Position numbers and translations under genes: made by a program | The notes under the pieces: model-generated | What the model was told of the DNA's origin: nothing | The model's input: only the letters and a program-made list of their open reading frames with translations | Database searches by the model: none | In this document: one piece after another, positions 997-12,300 of the stretch | How the letters are laid out: the number at the start of each line of letters is the position of its first letter | How positions within the stretch are numbered: the stretch's first letter is position 1 | DNA from: a virus | Virus genome (UHGV): UHGV-2131677 | Direction: 5' to 3' (one strand) | Length of the DNA: 26,182 nt

Positions 997-1254
997 TCAC
1001 ATTACCGGAAACGGCAGTGACAACTGCGCATCACCCCGGTGAGACGCAGGCAGGCTTTGCCACGGAATATCCTGTGAAGTGCTGCCATAACGTTTAACCG
1101 TGAGTTTGTCGAAACTCTCCAGCGTCGAGAAGGAGAGACTGCATTCCGGGTTGTTGCACTGGCAGAGTTTCCAGCGGACAGTTCCGGTATCGTTCGCGGC
1201 GCGACTGGTGCGGGTGCGTGTGCTCGCACCACAAAAAGGACACGGAAAAGACAC
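997..1254 (-). CDS. ogr: Ogr/Delta-family zinc-finger late transcription activator
   Basis: CPFC...RTSR...CQCNNPEC...FSTLES matches the P2 Ogr Cys4 pattern (CPLC...RTSR...CQNVNC...FITYES). Start placed at GTG 1252-1254 with AAGGAGG 8 nt upstream, which puts the first Cys near the N-terminus as in Ogr. Confidence 0.8.
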   Translation of the reverse strand: MSFPCPFCGASTRTRTSRAANDTGTVRWKLCQCNNPECSLSFSTLESFDKLTVKRYGSTSQDIPWQSLPASHRGDAQLSLPFPVM

Positions 1255-1304
1255 GACGAAGACCTCCTTTTTCGTGAAGGCGAATCGTCGTGATTTTATT
1301 CCGG

Positions 1305-2438
1305 TTATTCCTGTTGTGCTATCCATTCAGGAATTTTTAATTCCATCTCAAGCCGCGTGGTGAAGCCGCTGTCGTCGATGTTGTGCTCCACCTTCGCCAG
1401 CACCCAGTCTTCCGCGTCGATGTCGCTCTTGAAACCGGATACCGTGCCGCGCATTTCGGGGTACAGGTCGGGGCGACCGCGTGCCAGTGTGATGGAGAAC
1501 TCAGCCGCACCGCGCTGTAGCTGCTGCCACTTTGCCGCAGCGGCACGGCGTGCGGCCTCCTCGTTTTTGAAGGTTTGGCGCATGACGTACACATTGCCGT
1601 CTGCGCCCTCCATGTAATCCCCCTCGCGGCTGCTGCTTTTCTCCTTTTTTGTTTTTTGGGCAGAACCACGTTTCTTCACGCTGACTTTTTTCTTTTTGCC
1701 ATAGTCCAGGTCCAGCCAGTAAGCTCGTACCCCCGTGTACGCCTGCCGGTCTGCAATGCGGAAGTGATGGCTGTCACCGCTGCTGCGGGTGATGGCGAAT
1801 GAGGGCAGCGGCTTTCCGCTGGCGCTCACCCCCTGTCCGGGCACGATGAAAAGCAGTGCGCCGTTCTTGACGGTGGCGATTGCTCCCAGCATGTCTGCCA
1901 TACGCGTGAGGAACGAGATGTCGCTTTCCTCCGTCTGGTCGGCGTGGTCGATTTCCAGCCCTGCCAGTGAGGCGCTGATTTGCGCTTTCAGCCCGTAGCG
2001 GTACGCGATGGCAGAAACAACCTGTCCCACCGTCACGTCATGCCAGGACACTTCACGCTTCACGTTGAACTCCTGGCGGAAGTCTGCGCTGCTGGCCGTA
2101 ATGGTGAGTCTGTCCGGCGGTCCCTCGTGTGTCACCTCGTCAACGATGAACGCTCCCTTGTCCGTCAGCGCCTCACCTTTCCAGCCCAGCGCCAGCCCCA
2201 GCTTCTGCCCTCGCTTCGGGAGACGCACGCCGCCGTCGCTGTCGTCAATCGTGAGGGTTAACTGGTCTGCCTCAAATCCCCGGTTGTCGGTCATTGCCAG
2301 CGAGATGACCCGTCGGGTTAACGCCTCGTTTTCCTCTTTTTTTCCGGTTTCCGCGTTGTCAGTTGTGACGGAAAAATCCGGTATCTTCACGCACTCTGCC
2401 AGCCCGGCGAGGTATCCGTTAATGCCCGAAAAGTTCAT
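1305..2438 (-). CDS. D: Tail protein D (late control gene D family)
   Basis: Full-length similarity to P2 gpD recalled from memory; start ATG at 2436-2438 (MNFSGINGY) with GGAG 8 nt upstream; contains an internal Lys-rich insertion. Confidence 0.9.
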   Translation of the reverse strand: MNFSGINGYLAGLAECVKIPDFSVTTDNAETGKKEENEALTRRVISLAMTDNRGFEADQLTLTIDDSDGGVRLPKRGQKLGLALGWKGEALTDKGAFIVDEVTHEGPPDRLTITASSADFRQEFNVKREVSWHDVTVGQVVSAIAYRYGLKAQISASLAGLEIDHADQTEESDISFLTRMADMLGAIATVKNGALLFIVPGQGVSASGKPLPSFAITRSSGDSHHFRIADRQAYTGVRAYWLDLDYGKKKKVSVKKRGSAQKTKKEKSSSREGDYMEGADGNVYVMRQTFKNEEAARRAAAAKWQQLQRGAAEFSITLARGRPDLYPEMRGTVSGFKSDIDAEDWVLAKVEHNIDDSGFTTRLEMELKIPEWIAQQE

Positions 2439-2601
2439 CCCGCTTTCTCCGTCTGTGTCTTCGTCCTGCAAATCATTTCACACACGCGAAATACACCGCG
2501 AGCCGCGCATGTTGTAGGAGAGCGGCGAGAAGGGGCGGCGCGTGAATGTCGGGGTGTTTTTCGGGAGGATAGTGCCACAGAAAAAACACCAGGAGGTGCT
2601 C

Positions 2602-3783
2602 ATGAGTGAAACACGCTTTCACGGCGCACGCGTCAAAGAAAACACCGACCTCGTGACCGCGATTAATGACATTGATTCCAGTGTCATCGGTATCGTGGCT
2701 ACGGCGGACGATGCAGACAGCGACGCGTTCCCGTTAAACAGGCCCGTACTGATCACCCGCGTGGTGAATGTGCTGGGTAAGGCAGGCACAACAGGCACGC
2801 TGTACAAAACGCTCAAGGCGATTTCCGACCAGACCAGCCCGAAGGTTATCGTGGTGCGTGTGGCAGAAGCCGGAGAGGAAGGTGAGACACAGGACCAGCT
2901 TGTCATCGGTGGTTCGCAGGCTGACGGCAGCTACACGGGCATGTATGCCCTGCTGGTTGCCGAACAGGATGAGAGCATTGGTTACCGCCCGCGTATTCTG
3001 GCGGCTCCCGGCCTTGATACCGAAGCTGTCACATCTGCCCTGTGCGTCATTGCGGACAAGCTCCGCGCCTTTGTGTACGCCGGATGTAACGGCTGTGACA
3101 CGATGGCGGAGGCAATCACTTACCGCGCTAAGTTCTCCGCGCGTGAGCTGATGCTGCTGTGGCCTGACTTCATTGCCTACAACCCGGTGAGCGGAAATAA
3201 CGAAACATTTCCGGCTGCGGCGTATGCGTGCGGGTTGCGTGCGCGGATTGACAGTGAGCAGGGCTGGCACAAGTCACTGTCCAACGTGGCGCTGAAAAAT
3301 GTGCTCGGTATGTCGCAGCAGGTGTTCTGGTCTTTGCAGGCTGAAGACAGTGATGCGAACAACCTGAACAACAAGGAAATCACCACGATTATTCGCCGTA
3401 ACGGCTTCCGCTTCTGGGGGAACCGTACTGCCGAAACCAGCGACTACATCTTTGAGGTGTACACGCGCACAGCGCAGATTCTGGCAGATACCATCGCTGA
3501 GGCGCAGTTCGAAACCATTGACGAACCGCTGACCCCGGCGAACGTGAAGGACGTGATTAGCGCCATCCGCGCAAAACTCAATGCCCTGGTCACCGCCGGA
3601 AAACTTATCGGTGCGGAGTGCTGGTATGACGTGCTGGACAACGGCACGACGGATTTACGTCAGGGGCGCGTGCGTATCCGCTACAAGTACACACCAGTGC
3701 CGCCGATGGAAGACCTGACGCTGTACCAGACCTTCACGGATGAGTATTTCGACTCCGCTTTTGCAACGCTGGGAGGTGCGTAA
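2602..3783 (+). CDS. FI: Contractile tail sheath protein FI
   Basis: Strong collinear similarity to P2 gpFI (e.g. RAKIDxEQGWHKxLSNV, IRRxGFRFWGNRT, YxYTPVPPxExLTL); ATG 2602 with AGGAGG upstream. Confidence 0.95.
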   Translation: MSETRFHGARVKENTDLVTAINDIDSSVIGIVATADDADSDAFPLNRPVLITRVVNVLGKAGTTGTLYKTLKAISDQTSPKVIVVRVAEAGEEGETQDQLVIGGSQADGSYTGMYALLVAEQDESIGYRPRILAAPGLDTEAVTSALCVIADKLRAFVYAGCNGCDTMAEAITYRAKFSARELMLLWPDFIAYNPVSGNNETFPAAAYACGLRARIDSEQGWHKSLSNVALKNVLGMSQQVFWSLQAEDSDANNLNNKEITTIIRRNGFRFWGNRTAETSDYIFEVYTRTAQILADTIAEAQFETIDEPLTPANVKDVISAIRAKLNALVTAGKLIGAECWYDVLDNGTTDLRQGRVRIRYKYTPVPPMEDLTLYQTFTDEYFDSAFATLGGA

Positions 3784-4299
3784 ATGGCTGTACCACGTTA
3801 CGTTCGCCAGTTCACGCTGTTTGTGAACGGCAAAAACAAAATCGGCACGGTGACAGGCGTCACTCTGCCTAAACTGACCCGAAAAACCGAAGCCTATCGC
3901 GGTGGCGGGATGCTGGGTGCGGTGCATATTGACCTCGGACTGGATGACGGCGCACTGGATGCCTCATTCACCACCGGCGGTGTTGAAAAAGAGTTGCTCC
4001 AGGAATACGCCACTGACATTAACGAAGTGGCGCTGCGCTTTGTGGGTGAGCTGTTCACCGATGGTGAGGAAAGTCAGCTCCTTGAGGTGGAGATGCGCGG
4101 ACGCATCACGGAAATCGACCGTGGCGAAACCAAACAGGGCGACACCACACAGTACACCTTCGCCGTCAAAAACACCTACTACAAGGAGTCGGTGGATGAC
4201 AGCGATGTGACAGAAATCGACCTGCTGAACTTCATCTACAAAAAAGACGGCCAGAACGTCTTTGGTGACCGCGTGAGTTCGGCGCTCGGTCTGAACTGA
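3784..4299 (+). CDS. FII: Tail tube protein FII
   Basis: Similarity to P2 gpFII (LPKLTRKxExYRGxGM, DLGLDDxAL); start ATG abuts the FI stop (TAAATG). Confidence 0.95.
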   Translation: MAVPRYVRQFTLFVNGKNKIGTVTGVTLPKLTRKTEAYRGGGMLGAVHIDLGLDDGALDASFTTGGVEKELLQEYATDINEVALRFVGELFTDGEESQLLEVEMRGRITEIDRGETKQGDTTQYTFAVKNTYYKESVDDSDVTEIDLLNFIYKKDGQNVFGDRVSSALGLN

Positions 4300-4311
4300 C
4301 AGTATTAACAG

Positions 4312-4330
4312 GGCGGCACGCCGTGCCGCC
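4312..4330 (+). other. GC-rich inverted repeat (GGCGGCACG C CGTGCCGCC) in the FII-E intergenic spacer; possible mRNA stem-loop
   Basis: Perfect 9-bp inverted repeat read directly; no following T-run, so not a canonical terminator. Confidence 0.4.
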
Positions 4331-4344
4331 ACAGGAGAAAGAAA

Positions 4345-4728
4345 ATGGCAGCAAAGAAAGATGACATCATGAACGACGACATCATTGCAGAGGACACCGC
4401 TGTGGAAAGCGCAGAGACCGCAGGGGAAAAAACGGGTGTGCAGTTATCCTGCCCGGTGGTGCGTGGCGAGCGCGTTATTGACTTCGTGGAGATTGGCGAG
4501 GAAATTCGTCAGGCAGGTTCACTGCGCGGCCTGTCGCTGATTGAGGTGCTGAACCTCAAAACAGACCCGGTGATGACGCTGCTTTCACGCGTGACCACAC
4601 CACGCCTGAAGCTGGCAGAAATTCAGTCACTGTCCACCGGTGATTTCGTGGCGCTGGCTACTCTGGTGGCGAATTTTTTGGCTCCCACGGAGTCTGCGAA
4701 ACCGTCCGTGGCGGTGACGGAAGCGTGA
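4345..4728 (+). CDS. E: Tail assembly chaperone E
   Basis: Position after FII, size (127 aa), acidic N-terminus, and slippery heptamer near its 3' end as in P2 gene E. Confidence 0.85.
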   Translation: MAAKKDDIMNDDIIAEDTAVESAETAGEKTGVQLSCPVVRGERVIDFVEIGEEIRQAGSLRGLSLIEVLNLKTDPVMTLLSRVTTPRLKLAEIQSLSTGDFVALATLVANFLAPTESAKPSVAVTEA

Positions 4729-4892
4729 TCACGCTGGCGAAGTTCGACCACGTTGAAGAACTGATCGCCGATATTGCAGTCGTGTTTAACTGGTCGCCCG
4801 GCGAGATATTCTCAATGCCTCTCGTCGAGGTGATGAGCTGGCGTGAGCGGGTGGCGCAACGTAGCGGAGTCCGCAACAGTGAAATCCCTTGA
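4345..4892 (+). CDS. E': Tail assembly chaperone E+E', product of a programmed -1 translational frameshift at TTTTTTG (4674-4680)
   Basis: Slippery heptamer T TTT TTG in the E frame; the -1 frame is open from 4680 to the TGA at 4890-4892 and encodes ...GSVITLAKFDHVEELIADIAVVFNWSPGEIFSMPL...WRER..., matching the conserved P2 E' extension. Confidence 0.7.
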
Positions 4893-7800
4893 TATTCGTG
4901 TCAGTTTTGGCGCAATCGACCGGCTGACACGTCCGACCGAAAACGCCCGCCGTCAGGTGGGCGCTCTCACTGAATCCCTTCAGAATACGCAGAACAACAT
5001 ACAGGCGCTCGACAGGCAGTCCAAGGTGTTCGAACGTGCCGCCGGAAATCTCAGTAAATACCGCGAACAGATTGCCCGCGCGGAGCAGAGGCTCGCCGGG
5101 CTGCGAAAGGCAGAGCAGGACGGCAAAAACCTCTCTGAAAAGCAGCGGGAGATGATGACGGCGCTGTCTGCACGTCTTGAGCGCCTGAACGAGCTGCGCA
5201 CGCGCGAACGCGAAAAACTTCAGGCGGCGGCAGGGGAAATGCGCAGACACGGCATTCTGCTTTCCGGTAGCAGCCGGACCATCGAAAGTGCCGTTCGCCG
5301 CACACAGCAGTACAACGAGCAGCTCGAGCGCGAACGGCAGGTGCTGGCTCGCGTGACGCAGGCACAGAACCGCTATGAGGCCGCGAAGGCTCAGGCGGAA
5401 AAACTGCGCAACACAGGGGCTGTGGCGATGGCGGCGGGTACAGGTGGCCTGTATGCGGCGCAGCGCATGATGGCTCCGGCGATGGAATCCGAACAGCACG
5501 GCGCGGTTATCGCTGCCGGTTCGGGGGAAGGCGCAGAGGATGGCGCACGTTACACTCACATCATCCGTAACATACAGGCTGACGGTCTCGCTGATTTTGC
5601 CGGTGCTGCGGAGGCCGTGAGTGCGGTACGCAGCACGCTCGGTGCGCTGGGCGACACCGGCGACCGGGAACTGGAGCGCATCAGTCGTCGTGCGCTGGAT
5701 ATGCAGACCGTCTTTGGTGTTGATGTGCCGCAGAGCATTCAGGCCGCTGCCATCATGATGAAGAACGGGCTGGCTGCCAGCAGTGACGAGGCTACTAACC
5801 TGATGACGGCAGGGATGCAGCGTATGTCCGCTGAAATGCGCGATGAACTGCCGGAAATTCTGCACGAGTATTCCACCCACTTCCGCAACATGGGCTTCAC
5901 CGGCAGCGAGACAATGAGTCTGCTGGTTGAGATGGCAAAGCAGGGCAAGTTTGCTCTGGATAAAACCGGCGATGCCGTGAAGGAGTTCAGCATCCGGGGT
6001 TCGGATATGTCGAAATCCAGTGTCTCAGCGTATGAGACACTCGGCCTGAATGCCGAACGGGTGTCTGCTGCCATTGCACAGGGGGGCGGCAACGCACGTC
6101 AGGCGATGCAGGTGACCGCCCGTGCACTGCTGGCCATCCGTGACCCGGCAGAGCGGGCGAACACGGCCATTGCGCTGTTCGGCACACCCGTTGAAGACCT
6201 CTCCGTTGACCAGATCCCGCGGTTCTTAAAGGCGCTGGCCGATGTCCGTGACAACCTGGGCGATGTCAGCGGCGTGGCAGACCGCATGGGGCAGACGCTG
6301 CGCGGTAATCTTTCCGGCGATGTTCAGGCCCTGAGTGGTGCGTTCTCAGGGCTACGCACGGACATCTTCGGCACAGTGACGGAGGATTTGCGCGGGCTGG
6401 TTCAGACGGTGAGCGCGTGGGTAACCCGGATGCGCGAATGGGTCGGAGAGCATCAGGCGCTGGTCAGAGTTCTGGTGCTGACCGGCGGGAGTGTTCTGGC
6501 GCTGTCTTCCACGTTCGGTGCGCTGTCGCTGACGCTCGGGCTGATTGCGGGGCCGCTGGCAAAACTGCAACTGGGGCTGGGACTGCTGACGGGGGGCGGC
6601 GGCATTGGTGGTGCTGTCCGGCTTGTGTCCGCGCTGGCACTGCGCCTGACGGGGCTGCCTGCGCTGTGGGCGCTGGTCACGGGGGCGGTGTCGGTACTGG
6701 GTGGCGCACTGGGTGCGCTGTTCAGTCCGGTCGGGCTGATCGTTGCCGCCCTGGTGGGCGGCGCGGTTCTGGTGTTGAAATACTGGGATCAGATCAGCGC
6801 GTTTTTTTCCGGCTTTTTTGCCGGAGTGTGGGAGGCGCTGCAACCGCTGCGGGAAGCCTTTGCATCGCTGGCTCCGGTGTTCGGGCTGATTGGTGACGGC
6901 ATCAAAGCCGCGTGGGAGTGGTTCACCCGCCTGCTTGAACCTGCAAACGCCTCAAAAGAGACGCTCGACAAATGTACCAGTGCAGGGGAGTCGTTCGGGA
7001 AAACGCTGGGGTGGGTCATTCAGAACATTGTGCTGGGGCCGCTGACGCTGCTCCTTGATGGCCTCGGTACCGTGCTGAAGTGGCTGGGTGTCATCCCGGA
7101 CGGCATCAAAGAGGCACAGAAGGAGACGCAAAAACTCCAGGAGAGCGCCGCAAAACAGTCCACACAAAAAGCGCCGGTTGCGTGGGAGTGGGATCCTGCA
7201 CAGAAAAAAATGGTGCAGAAAACATGGTCGTGGTCATCAGATGCAGCGGAAAACAACGGTGACAATAAACCTGCCCCTGCTGTTCCCGGAGAGGTGAGGG
7301 GAACGGCGGACAATCCGGTCGGCAAACCCGGCAGCAAATCCCCGCTGGATGAGGCATGGTTCCGGCAGGGGATACAGAAAACCGCCAACAATACAGGCGG
7401 GCTTCTTGAGGAAACACGCAGGCGCGTCGGTCCCGGCGATATTATTTTCAAAAATCTGCCCGGCCCCGAAATCATTCACGACGAGTGGAAAGCACCGCAG
7501 GTTATCCGGACAGTGCAGGCGGTATCGGCGGGCGGAGGAGTGGTGGATGCGCTGACAACGCTCTGGCAGAAACTCACCGGAAGACAGACTGCTTCACCCG
7601 TACCGGCCGTGAATATTCCTGCGCCGGTGGCGAATGTGGCGCATCAGGTGTCCGCACTGCCGCAGCCGCGTAACGTGACGGAGGGTATGACTGGTGCGGT
7701 GATGGCTTCCGCTCCCGTCGCGGAGGCTATCCGGCCCCCGTTGCGACCGGAATCGGCCAGAAGGGAAGCTGCGCCACAACCGCAGGCTGCTGCGTTTTCC

Positions 7801-7938
7801 GGTGAGATACATGTACATCTGCACAACGTCAACACACAGAATCCGCGCGAACTGGCAAAACTGGTTGGAGAGGCTGTCCGCGAAGAGATGCGCAGACAGG
7901 CGCGTACAGGCATGAACAGCTTCCGCGACAGGGACTAA
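4843..7938 (+). CDS. T: Tail tape measure protein T
   Basis: About 1030 aa, coiled-coil N-terminal part, long Gly/Ala/Leu-rich hydrophobic tract, located between E/E' and U. Start ambiguous: GTG 4843 (GAGGTGA upstream) or GTG 4879 (GGAG upstream). Confidence 0.9.
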   Translation: MSGWRNVAESATVKSLDIRVSFGAIDRLTRPTENARRQVGALTESLQNTQNNIQALDRQSKVFERAAGNLSKYREQIARAEQRLAGLRKAEQDGKNLSEKQREMMTALSARLERLNELRTREREKLQAAAGEMRRHGILLSGSSRTIESAVRRTQQYNEQLERERQVLARVTQAQNRYEAAKAQAEKLRNTGAVAMAAGTGGLYAAQRMMAPAMESEQHGAVIAAGSGEGAEDGARYTHIIRNIQADGLADFAGAAEAVSAVRSTLGALGDTGDRELERISRRALDMQTVFGVDVPQSIQAAAIMMKNGLAASSDEATNLMTAGMQRMSAEMRDELPEILHEYSTHFRNMGFTGSETMSLLVEMAKQGKFALDKTGDAVKEFSIRGSDMSKSSVSAYETLGLNAERVSAAIAQGGGNARQAMQVTARALLAIRDPAERANTAIALFGTPVEDLSVDQIPRFLKALADVRDNLGDVSGVADRMGQTLRGNLSGDVQALSGAFSGLRTDIFGTVTEDLRGLVQTVSAWVTRMREWVGEHQALVRVLVLTGGSVLALSSTFGALSLTLGLIAGPLAKLQLGLGLLTGGGGIGGAVRLVSALALRLTGLPALWALVTGAVSVLGGALGALFSPVGLIVAALVGGAVLVLKYWDQISAFFSGFFAGVWEALQPLREAFASLAPVFGLIGDGIKAAWEWFTRLLEPANASKETLDKCTSAGESFGKTLGWVIQNIVLGPLTLLLDGLGTVLKWLGVIPDGIKEAQKETQKLQESAAKQSTQKAPVAWEWDPAQKKMVQKTWSWSSDAAENNGDNKPAPAVPGEVRGTADNPVGKPGSKSPLDEAWFRQGIQKTANNTGGLLEETRRRVGPGDIIFKNLPGPEIIHDEWKAPQVIRTVQAVSAGGGVVDALTTLWQKLTGRQTASPVPAVNIPAPVANVAHQVSALPQPRNVTEGMTGAVMASAPVAEAIRPPLRPESARREAAPQPQAAAFSGEIHVHLHNVNTQNPRELAKLVGEAVREEMRRQARTGMNSFRDRD

Positions 7939-7951
7939 AGGAGACACAATT

Positions 7952-8410
7952 ATGATGATGATTTTCGGCATGTTTGTGTTTGAACTGAAAACACTGCCGC
8001 ATCAGCAGATCCAGCAGAGCAAAACATGGCGACATGTGAAAAATGAGCGCATAAACCGCTCTGCGGCCTGGCAGTATATCGGCGCAGGTGATGATCAGAT
8101 CACGCTGTCCGGTTTGCTGTACCCGGAAATTACCGGTGGTGAGGTGTCACTGACACTGCTGAACACTCAGGCCTACACCGGATGTCCCTGGCCGCTGATT
8201 GATGGCACGGGGCAGATTTACGGAATGTACGTGATTACGGGATTACAGACCACCCGCTCCGAACTGGATCGTTACGGAAAGGCAAAAAAGATTGAGTTTT
8301 CTGTCAGTTTTCAGCGGTGTGATGAGGATATGAGGGAGAAACTTCAGTCAGCTTCTGCGGGTGAATTACTGAACACGCTTAAAGACAAAATGGCGACAGC
8401 GGCATTCTGA
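7952..8410 (+). CDS. U: Tail protein U
   Basis: MMMIFGMFVFELKTLPHQQ... resembles the P2 gpU N-terminus (MMMVLGLFVF...), ...ITLSGLLYPEITGG...; AAGGAG upstream of ATG. Confidence 0.9.
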   Translation: MMMIFGMFVFELKTLPHQQIQQSKTWRHVKNERINRSAAWQYIGAGDDQITLSGLLYPEITGGEVSLTLLNTQAYTGCPWPLIDGTGQIYGMYVITGLQTTRSELDRYGKAKKIEFSVSFQRCDEDMREKLQSASAGELLNTLKDKMATAAF

Positions 8411-8420
8411 ATAAAAAGAA

Positions 8421-8441
8421 GGGAGTGTAAAAAACACTCCC
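8421..8441 (-). terminator. Hairpin terminator (GGGAGTGT-AAAAA-ACACTCCC), T-run on the minus-strand side
   Basis: Perfect 8-bp stem read directly; flanked by aaaaagaa on the plus strand, which is a U-tract on the minus strand; may also act weakly for the plus-strand U transcript. Confidence 0.5.
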
Positions 8442-8470
8442 TTATACCCGTTATGGAAGAAAAGCAAATG

Positions 8471-8498
8471 TTGTCAATACATTCTCACTATATATAAA
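8471..8498 (+). promoter_or_regulatory. Candidate sigma70 promoter (TTGTCA - 16 bp - TATAAA) inside the AT-rich island
   Basis: Hexamers read directly; AT-rich context makes chance matches likely. Confidence 0.25.
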
Positions 8499-8532
8499 TC
8501 GCCCGATGAAGGCAATGGTGATATTCGGGAAA

Positions 8533-8556
8533 TAAAAAAGCCCTCATAAAGAGGGC
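8533..8556 (-). terminator. Rho-independent terminator (GCCCTC-ATAAA-GAGGGC followed by a U-run on the minus strand)
   Basis: Stem plus aaaaaa immediately 5' on the plus strand, which is a T6 run 3' of the hairpin on the minus strand. Confidence 0.55.
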
Positions 8557-8586
8557 AACATGCATTGTGTGAAGATTTAAAGTTCT

Positions 8587-8721
8587 ATGTTCCGGAAGGG
8601 ATTATATTGGGTTGGCGTTATTGAAACAATATTTTTAATTATTATCGTCATCGATGAAAATGTTTCCTGCGATTTTGTTGCTCTGATTACAATTTTGTCT
8701 GTTACTGTATCTTTGTGGTAA
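8587..8721 (+). CDS. Candidate small hydrophobic peptide (44 aa, MFRKGLYWVGVIETIFLIIIVIDENVSCDFVALITILSVTVSLW); possible type I toxin-like membrane peptide
   Basis: Hand translation of the plus strand; two hydrophobic segments; weak RBS; below the 60-aa cut-off of the supplied ORF track; could be a chance ORF in AT-rich DNA. Confidence 0.2.
   Translation: MFRKGLYWVGVIETIFLIIIVIDENVSCDFVALITILSVTVSLW
8601..8629 (-). promoter_or_regulatory. Candidate minus-strand promoter (TTGTTT - 17 bp - TATAAT) that would drive a roughly 60-nt antisense RNA ending at the 8533-8556 terminator
   Basis: Perfect TATAAT (reverse complement of 8601-8606) with a TTG-containing -35 at 8624-8629; AT-rich context. 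Confidence 0.25.
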
Positions 8722-8744
8722 AAAAAAGCCCGCACGGGGCGGGC
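8720..8744 (-). terminator. Rho-independent terminator of the minus-strand tail-fibre operon (GCCCGC-ACGG-GGCGGGC followed by U8)
   Basis: Hairpin at 8728-8744 with an A8 run at 8720-8727 on the plus strand, which is a U-tract after the stem on the minus strand; 45 nt downstream of the G stop. Confidence 0.65.
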
Positions 8745-8788
8745 AAAGAATGTTTGCATGTGTATAACGCTGCGGGATTATAAATATA

Positions 8789-9352
8789 TTATGCCTTCTG
8801 TAAACCCCCCTTTGATGGCGATTCAGGCCATACCAGCGCATTGTAACAATCTTCATCAGTCACGGAAGTGAACGTCATCTGCTGAAGTTCCTTAATGTAT
8901 TCAATCCACGCAGCCAGGCTTCCTCTGTCTTCATCACTGATAGTGCCAAGCAACAACTCAGACTGCCAGATGCTGACTCTCTCTTTTGCCTCCGACAGCA
9001 GGATGTTTCGTTGTGATTCCGCTTTAGTCTGCCACTCCTCAGGAGACAATATACGGCGAACAATACTCTCACCGTCAAATATCCAGTTACCGTTAATATC
9101 TACGCCATCAGGCAGGCTTTCTGTTTCCGCCACTGATGCCCCCACAGGCCAGAGCGCTGAAACGTCATTTGATATGCTGACGATAATATTATTACTGTCA
9201 TAGACTACTTTTACTGTGTTCTCAGAAAACTGTTTCTGACATTCATACCAGTCATTACCGTTTTCATCCTGAAGGAATAAAACTCCAGCATCAATAAGCT
9301 CTCTTTTATCTTCTCCCGGCGTGTAGGAAGTGAAGTTTTTAAAATTATTCAT
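8789..9352 (-). CDS. G: Tail fibre assembly protein (chaperone)
   Basis: Immediately downstream of tail fibre gene H; start ATG 9350-9352 (MNNFKNF...) with AGGAGG upstream; size and position typical of Tfa/gpG. Confidence 0.85.
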   Translation of the reverse strand: MNNFKNFTSYTPGEDKRELIDAGVLFLQDENGNDWYECQKQFSENTVKVVYDSNNIIVSISNDVSALWPVGASVAETESLPDGVDINGNWIFDGESIVRRILSPEEWQTKAESQRNILLSEAKERVSIWQSELLLGTISDEDRGSLAAWIEYIKELQQMTFTSVTDEDCYNALVWPESPSKGGLQKA

Positions 9353-9366
9353 ATACTGCCTCCTTT

Positions 9367-12300
9367 TTATACTGATGCTGCTGTGTACCAGGTTCCGTTG
9401 ATACAATATTGGACGGGTCTGTAATAAACGCCCGCTATATTATCGGCAGAGTTGGACCCTGTATCCTGAACATTAATACCAGACAATACATGACCTGACG
9501 GGCACTGGAAATTCCATGTTTGCCAGTTGTTTACTCCATGATATTGCTGTGAACCAAGTCGAACATCTTTCACATAACGGGAATCAAAGTTACCGTAATC
9601 CGAGGGGTTAACACGCCCTGTAATATTTATGGTTTTATTACTTTGAATGCTGTCGGAGACAAAGCGCATAACATGGACGTTATTAGCATAAACGTCCAGA
9701 TTACCGTCGCCATTTTGTTTAAAGCCCGTGTCATTATCACCCAAAACAATCGAGTTACCGCCAAGAGCACTGGATGTTCCGATACCCAGTGCACCATTCA
9801 ATTGACCACCAGATAACGACAGTGCACCGACATCTCCCGCTGTAGGTTTTCGCGTTGTGGTATAAAACTCAGACCAGTCAGCCTCGAATCCGTAACCGTC
9901 ACGAGCAGAACGATAAAAAATACCGCCGTTATTATAATTAACGCGGAACTGGGCGGCGGGACAACTTCCTTCACCGATATTAAAATGAAGAATTAACGTT
10001 GATGCCCCACCAATAGTTGCGTTATAGGCTCCGCTACTCCAGTTCCATCCAACGGCTTTATCATTCGCAACGGTATCTCCTGTTTTTCCTGAAGCAAATG
10101 CACCAATATTTTTCGGCGTCAGGTTAATATCTGATGTTCCATCAAACGAAACGGAATTAATCTTTCTCGCGGTTTTCAGCTTTGTAGCCGTTGAGGCATT
10201 GCCGGACAGCTCACCAGAAAGGCCAGCACTGAATGTCTGTTTCGCGCCCCATGTCTGGGCTTCGTCGATAATTGGCACACGTCTTGCTGTGATCGTGCGG
10301 CTTCCCGGATTTCCTGAAATACGCACCATAAAAAAGCGGTAGTTGGCTTTACTTACAGTGCTGCGCCATACATGCATTGAGCGTCCCGTACCGGTATCAT
10401 CACTTGGGCCAACAGCGATGTTTATCAGGTTGCCATCAATAACGCCCCAGTCCATACCGTCGGGAATATTGGTCATGTTATCCAGCCGAACGGTTATCAG
10501 ACTGCCCGGCACAAAGTCGTAGGTCTGCCAGTCCAGGCTGGTGAGTTTTGCTGCTGCGCCACCGATACCCAGATTCAGGGGAAGTGAATACGAGGTGTAG
10601 ACTTCCCGCCATTCGCTCCATGAGCTGGCGGTATAGACTCGTTCATATGAGCGACCTTTCGTTGTCGTTCCTGTCCCTGTTGTGGTATAGCGTTGCAATA
10701 CGGCAACGTAATCAAAACGTCTGATAACCTCTAACACCCCTAGTAGTGTTGCACCGGATGAATCCAGCAATGGACCATTGCTCGCTTTACCCGTCACACT
10801 GTAAATACCAGGGTCGGTTAGATCATTCAAATCACCGTCATAAAAGCTGCTTGCAGTCTGGCTGCCGATTCTCAGCCACGGTTCCCACTGTGGGTTTGAT
10901 GCATCCCAGTTTGCAGCAAGGCAGCGGACATACATGTTCCCACGGCGAGTGGTATAACGCTGGGTATAACTGAATCCACCACCTTTCAGAACTTCAAGCA
11001 CCCCCTGCGCGTAACTACCAGCTTCTGGATAGTGCAACGCAAGAGAAGCTAACGTACTGGAACTGTTTCTCCATGTACCCAGGTTATCCTCCCCGGCCAG
11101 AAAATCGAGATCCATACTGTCATCCAGCGTTCTGGCCGTCCCCTGAACGTTACGCCATACGCTCCACGGACCGTCTGAACCATTCCATGTGCCAGAAAGG
11201 TTGCGCATATAAACATTGCCTGTTCTGGTGGTATAACGCTGCATTCCTGAAAAATTACCGCCATTGAATACCTCAAGAACACCGACTGCACCATCTTCAG
11301 GGAAATTTTTCTCAAGTGTTGCGTTGGTGGATGTGGATTTATACCAGACACCCACATAAGCCTTAACAGGACCAAACGTATTCAGATCAGCATCAACCGG
11401 CATTTCGCCGTTGTTTTTCATAAACGTCAGGCTGGTGACGCCAAGATTGTCACGGAATACGGATGCGTCAGGAATATCAGCGCCATTCGACGCTTTTTGC
11501 AAAGCCCCTTCCGCATAGTCGATAGTGTTGTTCAGTCCGAGGTACTGAATCACTGCTGCGACGGAGCTTTTGGCAAGAATATTGCGCCCCACCGCGGTTA
11601 TATCGGTCAGTGCAGCTGTGTCTGTGCTGGTGAAATAAGGCAGTTTGTTTGCGCCCGTAGCAAGCCTCGCCAGTGAGGTTAGCGTTGCATCAAGAGGCTG
11701 TTTGCCTGCCAGTGCATTGTTCATTGTTGTCGCAAAATTAGGGTCATCACCAAGTGCGGCTGCAAGTTCATTGAGCGTATCCAGCGCCCCCGGTGATGAG
11801 TCAACCAGGGCGGCAATGGCTGCGCGGACATAGGCCGTGTTGGCTATCTGCGTGTTGTTTGTGCCCTGTGCCGCAGTCGGTGCTGTCGGCGTGCCCGTCA
11901 GCGCCGGACTTTTGAGTGGCGCTTTTGTGTCATTAAGAGTCTTGATCGCTTTTGGCGTTGCTGCCACCGACTCGCTGTCGCTGTCCGTTGCACTGCTTAG
12001 CTGCGTGAAGCCCTTTTGCGTCAGTGAGGCATCCGGGTGACGGCGGGACTGCTCGTGCTCTGCAAGTTTGTCATCCACATAGTCCTGCGTTGCCATAATG
12101 GTTGTGCTGTCCACAGACAGGCTCACGGAATTAACGTCACTGATGATAATAATCATGCGACAGGTCATGGCGCGCCCGGAGCCTTCCGTGAGCAGGGGCT
12201 TGTAGCTTTCCGCCATGCTGGCAACCGCAATCAGTGTACCGGAGTTGTCATACAGCCCCAGCTCACGCATCCAGAAGCCACCAACTTCCGGCGGAATAAC

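What the first reader, a model, noticed from the sequence alone, without database searches (positions are those of the whole stretch)
8411..8788. AT-rich island between U and G with a type I toxin-antitoxin-like layout: small hydrophobic ORF, antisense RNA promoter and three minus-oriented terminators
Seen: a 380-bp strongly AT-rich spacer holds three stable hairpin terminators (8421-8441, 8533-8556, 8720-8744), each with its U-tract on the minus-strand side. Only the rightmost is needed to end the G/H operon, so the other two imply additional minus-strand transcription units. A plus-strand promoter candidate (TTGTCA-16-TATAAA, 8471-8498) precedes a 44-codon ORF (8587-8721) encoding a peptide with two hydrophobic segments. 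A minus-strand promoter candidate with a perfect TATAAT (8601-8629) would produce a roughly 60-nt RNA ending at the 8533-8556 terminator, exactly antisense to the ORF start codon and leader. Inference: this matches cis-antisense type I toxin-antitoxin modules. The island occupies the slot equivalent to the P2 Z/fun hotspot next to the tail fibre genes.
Basis: partly seen in the sequence, partly recalled or inferred. Interest (0 to 1): 0.6.

Follow-up and report, generated by a model that had tools for sequence, protein, structure and literature searches.

The report
Noncoding small-RNA island in P2-like prophage
The AT-rich spacer between two converging tail operons of an E. coli P2-like (P88-type) prophage is real and probably holds two or three small promoter-plus-terminator RNA units on the minus strand, but the proposed 44-codon toxin gene is not conserved, so it is more likely a cluster of prophage small-RNA genes than a toxin-antitoxin module.

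Summary
Observation confirmed. Positions 8411-8788 are a 36-39% GC spacer between gpU (+) and the tail-fibre assembly gene G (-). It holds three strong intrinsic terminators, all oriented for the minus strand.

Interpretation partly supported. Its minus -10 TATAAT (8606-8601) and -35 TTG are invariant inside the most variable stretch of the island. The RNA body plus terminator 2 lies in a 120-bp block that diverges 2-6%, against 14-21% at 4-fold sites of the adjacent U gene.

The toxin half fails:
- ORF44 has ATG only in window-type variants and one other type, where a stop follows after 7 codons.
- Its stop codon is lost in every other type, and indels shift its N-terminal frame.
- Its body evolves at the neutral rate with no codon periodicity.
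- It has no good ribosome-binding site, no Pfam/NCBIfam match, and no relatives outside this island.

Two further minus promoter-terminator pairs flank the antisense unit. The island occurs in 72 of 5426 complete E. coli genomes and is never annotated. It is missing from related prophages of other genera. It persists where G is only a remnant.

Best reading: a noncoding moron carrying candidate prophage sRNAs, not matching any Rfam 15 family. Expression is untested.

The parts
7952..8410 (+). gpU tail gene, last gene of the plus-strand FI-FII-E-T-U operon
   Evidence: Pfam PF06995, E 8e-40. Annotated 'phage tail protein' in homologous E. coli prophages.
8412..8443 (-). Terminator T1 (stem 8443-8419, tail to 8412), minus-oriented. 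It abuts the U stop codon. On the plus strand it has only a weak UUAU tail.
   Evidence: Scan. One compensatory G:C to C:G pair in two variants.
8412..8480 (-). Candidate small RNA C (~69 nt), inferred from promoter P_C to T1. Its 5' 20 nt lie in the conserved block.
   Evidence: fold z -3.5. The transcription start is inferred, not shown.
8460..8581 (.). Conserved noncoding block. It has two tightly kept sub-blocks (8460-8505 and 8533-8581) around a near-neutral stretch (8506-8532).
   Evidence: 9% variable columns. It diverges 2-6%, against 14-21% at U 4-fold sites; binomial P 1e-6 to 2e-5.
8471..8498 (+). It is invariant but lacks the -7 T, and it sits back-to-back with P_C.
   Evidence: Direct reading. 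Not called by the scan. Invariant.
8487..8515 (-). Promoter candidate P_C: TTGCCT (TTGCCA in other variants)-17-TATAGT.
   Evidence: Scans of the window, L003 and L001. Hexamers kept in all variants.
8530..8556 (-). Terminator T2 (stem 8556-8540, U-tract 8539-8534).
   Evidence: The stem is invariant in 9 variants.
8534..8593 (-). The first ~13 nt vary. The next 25 nt, UUAAAUCUUCACACAAUGCAUGUUG, are invariant except for the last two (GUUG is GCCG in the L050/L002 type), and are followed by T2.
   Evidence: The start is inferred from the -10 position.
8601..8629 (-). Promoter P_B: TTGTTT-17-TATAAT. The -10 and the TTG of the -35 are invariant, while the spacer has four unrelated alleles of 17-18 nt.
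   Evidence: GGGATTATATT (8598-8608) is invariant where 56% of columns vary.
8587..8721 (+). ORF44, a hydrophobic 44-codon frame. Judged not a conserved gene.
8720..8744 (-). Terminator T3 (stem 8744-8728, U8 tract). It ends the G/H operon where G is intact.
   Evidence: The A/T run varies between 7 and 9 among variants.
8720..8770 (-). Candidate small RNA A (~51 nt), from P_A to T3. This is the weakest of the three: its body diverges at about the neutral rate.
8777..8804 (-). Promoter P_A: TTTACA-16-TATAAT (11/12), overlapping the G stop codon. Other variants have TTTTCA-16-TATAAT.
   Evidence: TATAATCCC occurs only here and at P_B in the whole window; 0.05 expected.
8789..9355 (-). Tail-fibre assembly gene G. 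It is intact in the window but a remnant in most other carriers.
   Evidence: Pfam PF02413. Remnant status.

Best explanation
The island is a noncoding, AT-rich insertion (a moron in Hendrix's sense) at the convergent junction of the two tail operons of a P88-like (Xuanwuvirus, Peduoviridae) prophage.

It carries up to three tandem minus-strand units, each a sigma-70 promoter followed 50-70 nt later by an intrinsic terminator:
- RNA A, about 8770 to 8720.
- RNA B, about 8593 to 8534.
- RNA C, about 8480 to 8412.

Because the late operons are silent in a lysogen, these would be the transcripts made from this region in the prophage state. The invariant single-stranded stretch of RNA B (AAAUCUUCACACAAUGCAUG) and the 5' end of RNA C would act as seeds for base pairing. 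The terminator hairpin plus U-tail is the usual Hfq-binding module. T3, together with T2 and T1 behind it, also stops G/H transcription from running antisense into the U operon. ORF44 is an incidental open frame in T-rich DNA.

Shown: the sequence elements, their conservation pattern, and the lineage restriction.
Inferred: transcription starts, expression, Hfq dependence, trans targets.
For: Terminators and promoters:
- Three minus-oriented terminators are far above chance.
- Of the 9 promoter-like sites in 20 kb, 4 fall in this 400 bp, including the best one.

Promoter footprint for P_B:
- The -10 and the -35 TTG are invariant.
- The spacer exists in four unrelated alleles that keep a 17-18 nt length.
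- TATAATCCC occurs twice in 26 kb, both on the minus strand and both 45-60 nt upstream of a terminator, where 0.05 is expected.

Conservation:
- The block 8460-8581 diverges 2-6%, against 14-21% at 4-fold sites of U; P about 1e-5 to 1e-6.
- The stretches either side of the block are at or above the neutral rate.

Independence from G:
- In ST131-type prophages (L003), the tail-fibre module has its own terminator next to a second remnant of the U 3' end.
- In H1-type prophages (L001), a second remnant of the U 3' end likewise lies next to the swapped tail-fibre genes.
- In both, G is a remnant, yet all three promoter/terminator pairs are intact.

Distribution:
- Relatives in about 30 other genera have the same U-to-G convergence with only a 40-150 bp spacer and no island.
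- T1 keeps its stem through a compensatory change.
- No CDS is annotated in the island in any of the 72 E. coli genomes.
Against: - There is no expression data of any kind.
- The variants are few (about 5 haplotype groups) and mosaic. L106 is window-type to the right of 8460 but not to the left, so rate comparisons are approximate.
- The RNA A body is not more conserved than neutral sites.
- P_B has only 3/6 in its -35.
- Sub-block 8460-8505 is explained equally well by the invariant plus-strand promoter.
- No Rfam family matches.
- No phage mRNA target stands out above shuffled controls, and host targets could not be searched.
- T2 and T3 are invariant, so they give no covariation evidence.
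Confidence: 0.5

Rival explanations
1. Type I toxin-antitoxin module. A plus-strand mRNA from about 8505 encodes the hydrophobic ORF44. RNA B pairs with its leader and start codon and blocks translation.

A refinement seen here: a 6-codon mini-ORF (ATG 8560 to TAA 8580, MHCVKI), preceded by GAGGG in the T2 arm, ends 7 nt before the ORF44 ATG. This would allow hok/mok-like translational coupling that RNA B would cover.
For: - The layout is as described.
- The antisense promoter and RNA body are conserved.
- The plus promoter hexamers are invariant.
- Four of five haplotype groups keep an open frame through the hydrophobic body, despite a -1 and a +1 indel.
- The mini-ORF and its SD-like GAGGG are invariant by direct reading, though that is also explained by their being inside RNA B/T2.
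Against: - ATG is replaced by CTG in 6 of 12 variants. Those have only a TTG in another position.
- L048/L047 has a stop at codon 8 and another inside the body.
- TAA changes to CAA in all non-window types, so the frame runs through T3, with a C-terminus that changes with the A-run length.
- Variable sites fall 12/12/8 by codon phase, whereas U shows 1/8/4 with the excess at third positions.
- Divergence is 14-20%, equal to 4-fold sites.
- There is no SD before ORF44, by direct reading.
- No Pfam, NCBIfam or credible PHROG hit.
- No homologue in 5.8 billion clusters. One hit in 1.8 billion representatives is just another frame variant of the same island.
- The -10 TATAAA lacks the -7 T, and there is no plus-strand terminator.
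Confidence: 0.12
2. Passive junction. The three hairpins are stacked terminators that insulate two convergent late operons. The rest is relic DNA left by tail-fibre module swaps, and the promoter-like hexamers are chance features of AT-rich sequence. No independent RNA function exists.
For: - The junction is convergent, and relatives also place one or two hairpins there.
- The region is a recombination scar, with duplicated U 3' ends and G remnants.
- Promoter-like hexamers are common in AT-rich DNA.
- RNA A and the ORF44 body evolve neutrally.
Against: - It does not explain why 25 nt upstream of T2 and the terminator-free 8460-8505 are four-fold more conserved than synonymous sites.
- It does not explain why an 11-nt stretch containing TATAAT is invariant where 56% of columns vary.
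- In ST131-type prophages a separate terminator already ends the tail-fibre operon, so T3, T2 and T1 are redundant there yet intact.
Confidence: 0.2
3. Sense/antisense noncoding pair. A bidirectional promoter at 8471-8515 fires both ways. The plus RNA has no coding role. It pairs with RNA B (and RNA A, and the G 3' end), giving mutual degradation or transcriptional interference that tunes read-through between the two tail operons.
For: - The plus and minus -10 elements are adjacent (8493-8498 and 8492-8487), and the whole 8460-8505 stretch is nearly invariant.
- The plus RNA would be fully complementary to RNA B, by direct reading.
Against: - The plus -10 is non-canonical and is not called by the scan.
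- There is no plus-strand terminator.
- The plus-strand fold of 8505-8600 is not better than shuffles (z -1.2).
Confidence: 0.1

Closest known systems
Prophage-encoded intergenic Hfq-type sRNAs: PasA-D of EPEC lambdoid prophages, plus (named from my own knowledge) IsrK of Gifsy-1, DicF and STnc100
   Same: Short RNAs with their own promoter and intrinsic terminator, lying between phage structural genes, restricted to some lineages, and variable in sequence. 95.8-99.8% of Pas hits are adjacent to capsid or tail genes (Zhu, Shabalina, Storz, bioRxiv 10.64898/2026.05.13.724894).
   Different: - No sequence or Rfam similarity.
- The host phage is P2-like (Peduoviridae), not lambdoid.
- The units are 50-70 nt and arranged as a tandem array at a convergent operon junction.
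- Expression and Hfq binding are untested here.
Cis-antisense type I toxin-antitoxin modules (hok/sok, ldr/rdl, ibs/sib)
   Same: A ~60-nt antisense RNA with its own promoter and terminator overlaps the leader and start of a small hydrophobic frame on the other strand. The region is AT-rich and sits in a prophage. A possible upstream mini-ORF resembles mok.
   Different: The toxin frame is not conserved in start, stop, frame or sequence. It has no SD and no family membership. The antisense unit is kept in variants where the frame is broken.
P2 morons at the Z/fun position, downstream of G (named from my own knowledge of P2)
   Same: AT-rich extra DNA next to the tail-fibre assembly gene. It is absent from close relatives and has its own promoter and terminator signals.
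   Different: - It carries no protein gene.
- The junction is G facing U, because the FI-U operon is inverted as in P88.
- In P88 and the O103:H2 12009 prophage, this slot holds a DNA invertase and an invertible fibre segment instead.

Membership tests
Type I toxin-antitoxin | Small hydrophobic toxin ORF kept open, with start and stop, across related elements | tested here: not met
   The start is lost in 6 of 12 variants. One type has a premature stop. The stop is lost in all non-window types. Indels shift the frame.
Type I toxin-antitoxin | Purifying selection or codon periodicity on the toxin frame | tested here: not met
   Variable sites fall 12/12/8 by phase. Divergence equals that of U 4-fold sites.
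Type I toxin-antitoxin | Antisense RNA with its own promoter and terminator, overlapping the toxin mRNA | tested here: inconclusive
   The sequence elements are present and conserved. Transcription is not testable here.
Type I toxin-antitoxin | Membership of a known toxin family (Hok/Gef, Ldr, Ibs, TisB, ShoB, DinQ, ZorO and others) | tested here: not met
   No Pfam or NCBIfam hit at E up to 1-10. No outside homologue.
Type I toxin-antitoxin | Toxicity of the peptide, relieved by the RNA | not testable with these tools
   This needs inducible expression assays.
Moron (independent transcription unit inserted between phage operons) | Present in some members of a phage lineage and absent at the same junction in relatives | tested here: met
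   All of the ~73 E. coli prophages with this U lineage carry it. Forty-three loci from other genera have a 40-150 bp spacer or other cargo, with no homology.
Moron (independent transcription unit inserted between phage operons) | Deviant base composition, with its own promoter and factor-independent terminator | tested here: met
   GC is 0.36-0.39 against about 0.5-0.6. Promoter and terminator scans.
Moron (independent transcription unit inserted between phage operons) | Expressed from the repressed prophage | not testable with these tools
   No transcriptome of a carrier strain was found.
Hfq-type trans-acting sRNA | Intrinsic terminator with a U-tail at the 3' end, preceded by a conserved unpaired stretch | tested here: met
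   In RNA B, 25 nt that are invariant except for two positions in one variant type lie before T2, and its U6 tail is invariant. The 5' 20 nt of RNA C are conserved.
Hfq-type trans-acting sRNA | Identified mRNA target or Hfq binding | tested here: inconclusive
   No phage translation-initiation region pairs better than with shuffled RNAs. The host genome could not be scanned, and Hfq binding is not testable.
Any Rfam 15 family | Score at or above the gathering threshold | tested here: not met
   There are 0 hits at gathering. The best sub-threshold hit is 22.8 bits against 50, driven by the terminator.

The most novel reading that the evidence does not exclude
The island is a purely noncoding lysogenic-conversion cassette. 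It holds two or three previously undescribed sRNA families, carried by every E. coli prophage of this P88-like lineage (including those in ST131 isolates) and kept under purifying selection even after the neighbouring tail-fibre gene decayed. They are expressed in the lysogen and reprogramme host mRNAs through the invariant CACACAAUGCAUG-type seed.
Probability: 0.3. Interest if true: 0.5.

Novelty: new member of a known kind. Interest (0 to 1): 0.33.

Why it matters
If the small RNAs are real, they would be among the first sRNA genes assigned to a P2-like (Peduoviridae) prophage. They would also be an example of a moron that carries only regulatory RNA. They sit in prophages of clinically important lineages such as ST131, so they could link lysogeny to host gene regulation.

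The negative result matters too. A hydrophobic short ORF facing an antisense promoter in AT-rich DNA is not enough to call a type I toxin. Here, comparison of about a dozen variants separates a conserved RNA unit from an unconstrained frame.

Tried and rejected
- Rfam, at gathering and at E up to 10: nothing beyond terminator-driven noise.
- Phage database with DNA, near and distant modes: no match.
- Plasmids: only a 27-nt terminator match.
- Pattern scans of viral and metagenome contigs added only near-identical variants. The T2 23-mer and a 14-mer seed were too unspecific, and L112 was a chance match.
- nhmmer profile of the island against all 230 loci: no homologue outside E. coli-type copies. 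L078 was inspected and is unrelated.
- Tandem-duplication origin of the three units: local alignment score 28 against shuffles of 20 +/- 2.8 (maximum 34), not significant.
- Targets in the phage: exact complementarity of 9-10 nt is at chance level, and duplex energies at 27 translation-initiation regions are not better than shuffled RNAs. The first duplex scan timed out.
- Derivation of the island from the P88 invertase region: no similarity.
- Minus-strand ORFs of 60, 73 and 25 aa: they run through terminators and are broken in other variants.
- Literature: no paper on sRNAs or type I modules at this locus. One search failed on a term that was too short.

Full report
**What the window is**

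The window is the late region of a P2-like prophage. An almost identical prophage (99.7% over the query) sits next to prpB in E. coli SWHEFF_58. gpU, the tail-fibre assembly protein G, the tail fibre H and gpD are identified by Pfam. Unlike P2, the FI-FII-E-T-U operon is on the plus strand (2542-8410). It converges on G/H/I/J/W/V on the minus strand. The closest described phages by the U protein (76% identity) are P88 and other Xuanwuvirus members of the Peduoviridae.

**Check of the observation**

- The spacer 8411-8788 has GC 0.36-0.39, against 0.5-0.7 around it.
It finds six terminator-like sites in 8000-9400, against 1.3 expected.
- None of the three has a U-tract on the plus side.
- ORF44 (8587-8721) is present.
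- The scan adds two further minus-strand promoters. TTTACA-16-TATAAT at 8804-8777 is the best match in 20 kb. TTGCCT-17-TATAGT lies at 8515-8487.
- So each terminator has a promoter-like site 50-70 nt upstream on the same strand.

**Distribution**

- The island is found in 72 of 5426 complete E. coli genomes, always downstream of this U lineage.
- No CDS is annotated in it in any record.
- It is absent from the phage and plasmid collections.
- Forty-three loci from other genera encode a related U. Among these, the loci examined usually have the same U-to-G convergence, but their spacers are only 40-150 bp with one or two hairpins. None shows similarity to the island by BLAST or nhmmer.
- In P88 and in the O103:H2 12009 prophage, the same slot holds a DNA invertase and an invertible fibre segment.
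- The island is therefore lineage-specific cargo at a variable junction.

**Comparison of variants**

Twelve distinct copies, plus three from metagenomes, fall into about five haplotype groups. Conservation is very uneven. As a neutral yardstick, 4-fold sites of the adjacent U gene differ by 14-21% between the window and the other groups.

| Region | Divergence or variability | Note |
|---|---|---|
| Block 8460-8581 | 2-6% | P 1e-6 to 2e-5 |
| ORF44 body, 8626-8718 | 14-20% | at the neutral rate |
| 8581-8625 | 26-46%, with indels | 11 invariant bases within it |

- The invariant bases in 8581-8625 are GGGATTATATT (8598-8608). On the minus strand this is TATAAT followed by CCC. The CAA at 8627-8629, which is the TTG of the -35, is also invariant.
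- The 17-18 nt spacer between them exists in four unrelated sequences.
- That pattern is the footprint expected of a working promoter.
- The RNA it would make starts near 8593. Its first ~13 nt are variable. The next 25 nt (UUAAAUCUUCACACAAUGCAUGUUG) are invariant apart from two bases in one variant type, followed by terminator 2.
- TATAATCCC occurs only twice in the 26-kb window. Both copies are on the minus strand in the island, each upstream of a terminator; 0.05 copies are expected.

**The proposed toxin**

- ORF44's ATG is CTG in six of the twelve variants.
- The L048/L047 type keeps the ATG but has a stop after seven codons and another inside the hydrophobic body.
- The TAA stop is CAA in every non-window type, so the frame runs through terminator 3. 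Its end then changes with the length of the A-run (7-9).
- A -1 and a +1 indel replace the N-terminal 14 codons.
- Variable sites fall 12/12/8 over the three codon phases. The 3' end of U, used as a positive control, shows 8 of 13 at third positions.
- There is no Shine-Dalgarno sequence before the ATG.
- Pfam and NCBIfam give nothing, although they contain the known type I toxin families. PHROGs gives only E 0.03-0.06.
- The word-indexed search of 5.8 billion clusters finds no homologue.
- A full HMMER pass over 1.8 billion representatives finds one protein. It is another frame variant of this same island.
- A defining feature of type I modules was therefore tested and not met.

A six-codon mini-ORF (8560-8580), preceded by GAGGG, ends 7 nt before the ORF44 ATG, which would allow hok/mok-like coupling. 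However, these bases lie inside RNA B and terminator 2, which already explains their conservation.

**Independence from G**

In most carriers G is only a remnant.

- In the ST131-type prophage (L003), the current tail-fibre genes end at their own terminator (3912-3898). This is followed by a second copy of the last ~65 nt of U, then about 300 bp of G remnant (70% identical to the window), and then the island.
- SWHEFF_58 (L001) shows the same duplicated U end.
- Tail-fibre modules have evidently been swapped by recombination through the U 3' end, trapping the island.
- The three promoter/terminator pairs are intact in all of these, although T3 no longer terminates any operon there.

**What remains uncertain**

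- RNA A is weak. Apart from its -10 and terminator, it diverges at the neutral rate.
The two -10 elements are adjacent on opposite strands, so a bidirectional promoter cannot be excluded.
- The plus -10 (TATAAA) lacks the highly conserved final T, and no plus-strand terminator exists.
- Hairpins T2 and T3 never vary. T1 shows one compensatory G:C to C:G change.
- Predicted folds are dominated by the terminator hairpins, with z -2.1 to -3.5.
- No Rfam family matches.
- No phage mRNA stands out as a target, and host targets could not be searched.
- No transcriptome of a carrier strain was found.
- The nearest published analogue is the Pas sRNAs of EPEC lambdoid prophages, which are also intergenic next to tail and capsid genes. 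They are unrelated in sequence and occur in a different phage type.

**Verdict**

The most likely reading (about 0.5) is a noncoding moron with two or three tandem minus-strand small-RNA units, of which RNA B is best supported, that also act as stacked terminators at a convergent junction.

| Reading | Probability |
|---|---|
| Noncoding moron with minus-strand sRNA units | about 0.5 |
| Passive terminators plus relic DNA | about 0.2 |
| Type I toxin-antitoxin module | about 0.12 |
| Noncoding sense/antisense pair | about 0.1 |

This is a new member of a known kind (prophage sRNA genes or morons) and is of modest interest until expression is shown.

Noticed in passing
L003:3805-3925; L001:12820-12950; window 8330-8410: In most carrier prophages, a second, diverged copy of the last ~65 nt of gene U lies next to the current tail-fibre genes. 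The island and a G remnant are trapped between the two U ends. This looks like the scar of tail-fibre module exchange by recombination through the U 3' end.
   Followed up: partly
window 8797-8807 (minus strand GGTTTACAGAA, the last codons of G and the -35 of P_A): This resembles one half of the P88 invertase crossover site TTATCTAAAACCTCGGTTTACAGGAA (L236, about 4190-4215). Only a half-site is present, and there is no invertase in the window. It may be chance or a relic.
   Followed up: partly
window 8560-8580 (+): A six-codon mini-ORF ATGCATTGTGTGAAGATTTAA (MHCVKI), preceded by GAGGG from the terminator-2 arm, is invariant in all variants. The conserved block ends within a base of its stop codon.
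   Followed up: partly
window 8720-8727 and 8533-8539: The A/T runs of terminators 3 and 2 vary in length among variants (7-9 and 6-7). This shifts every reading frame that crosses them.
   Followed up: yes
window 4843-7938 versus L001:7812-11639: The tape-measure gene is 1031 codons in the window but 1275 in the otherwise near-identical SWHEFF_58 prophage, and it has other lengths in other carriers.
   Followed up: no
viral contigs L052-L105: The exact 23-mer of terminator 2 (AAAAAAGCCCTCAYAAAGAGGGC) occurs in 54 otherwise unrelated viral contigs, far more than chance would give for a sequence of that length. It appears to be a widely recurring terminator.
   Followed up: partly
window 1305-2471 and 997-1326 (minus) versus 2542-8410 (plus): gpD and an ogr-like gene are on the opposite strand to FI-U, so the whole FI-U operon is inverted relative to P2. 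This arrangement is shared with P88-like phages and with relatives in many enterobacterial genera.
   Followed up: partly
window 25330-25480: An intergenic stretch after the 24464-25270 ORF has a GC-rich hairpin (25435-25454) and AT-rich flanks. It was not examined.
   Followed up: no
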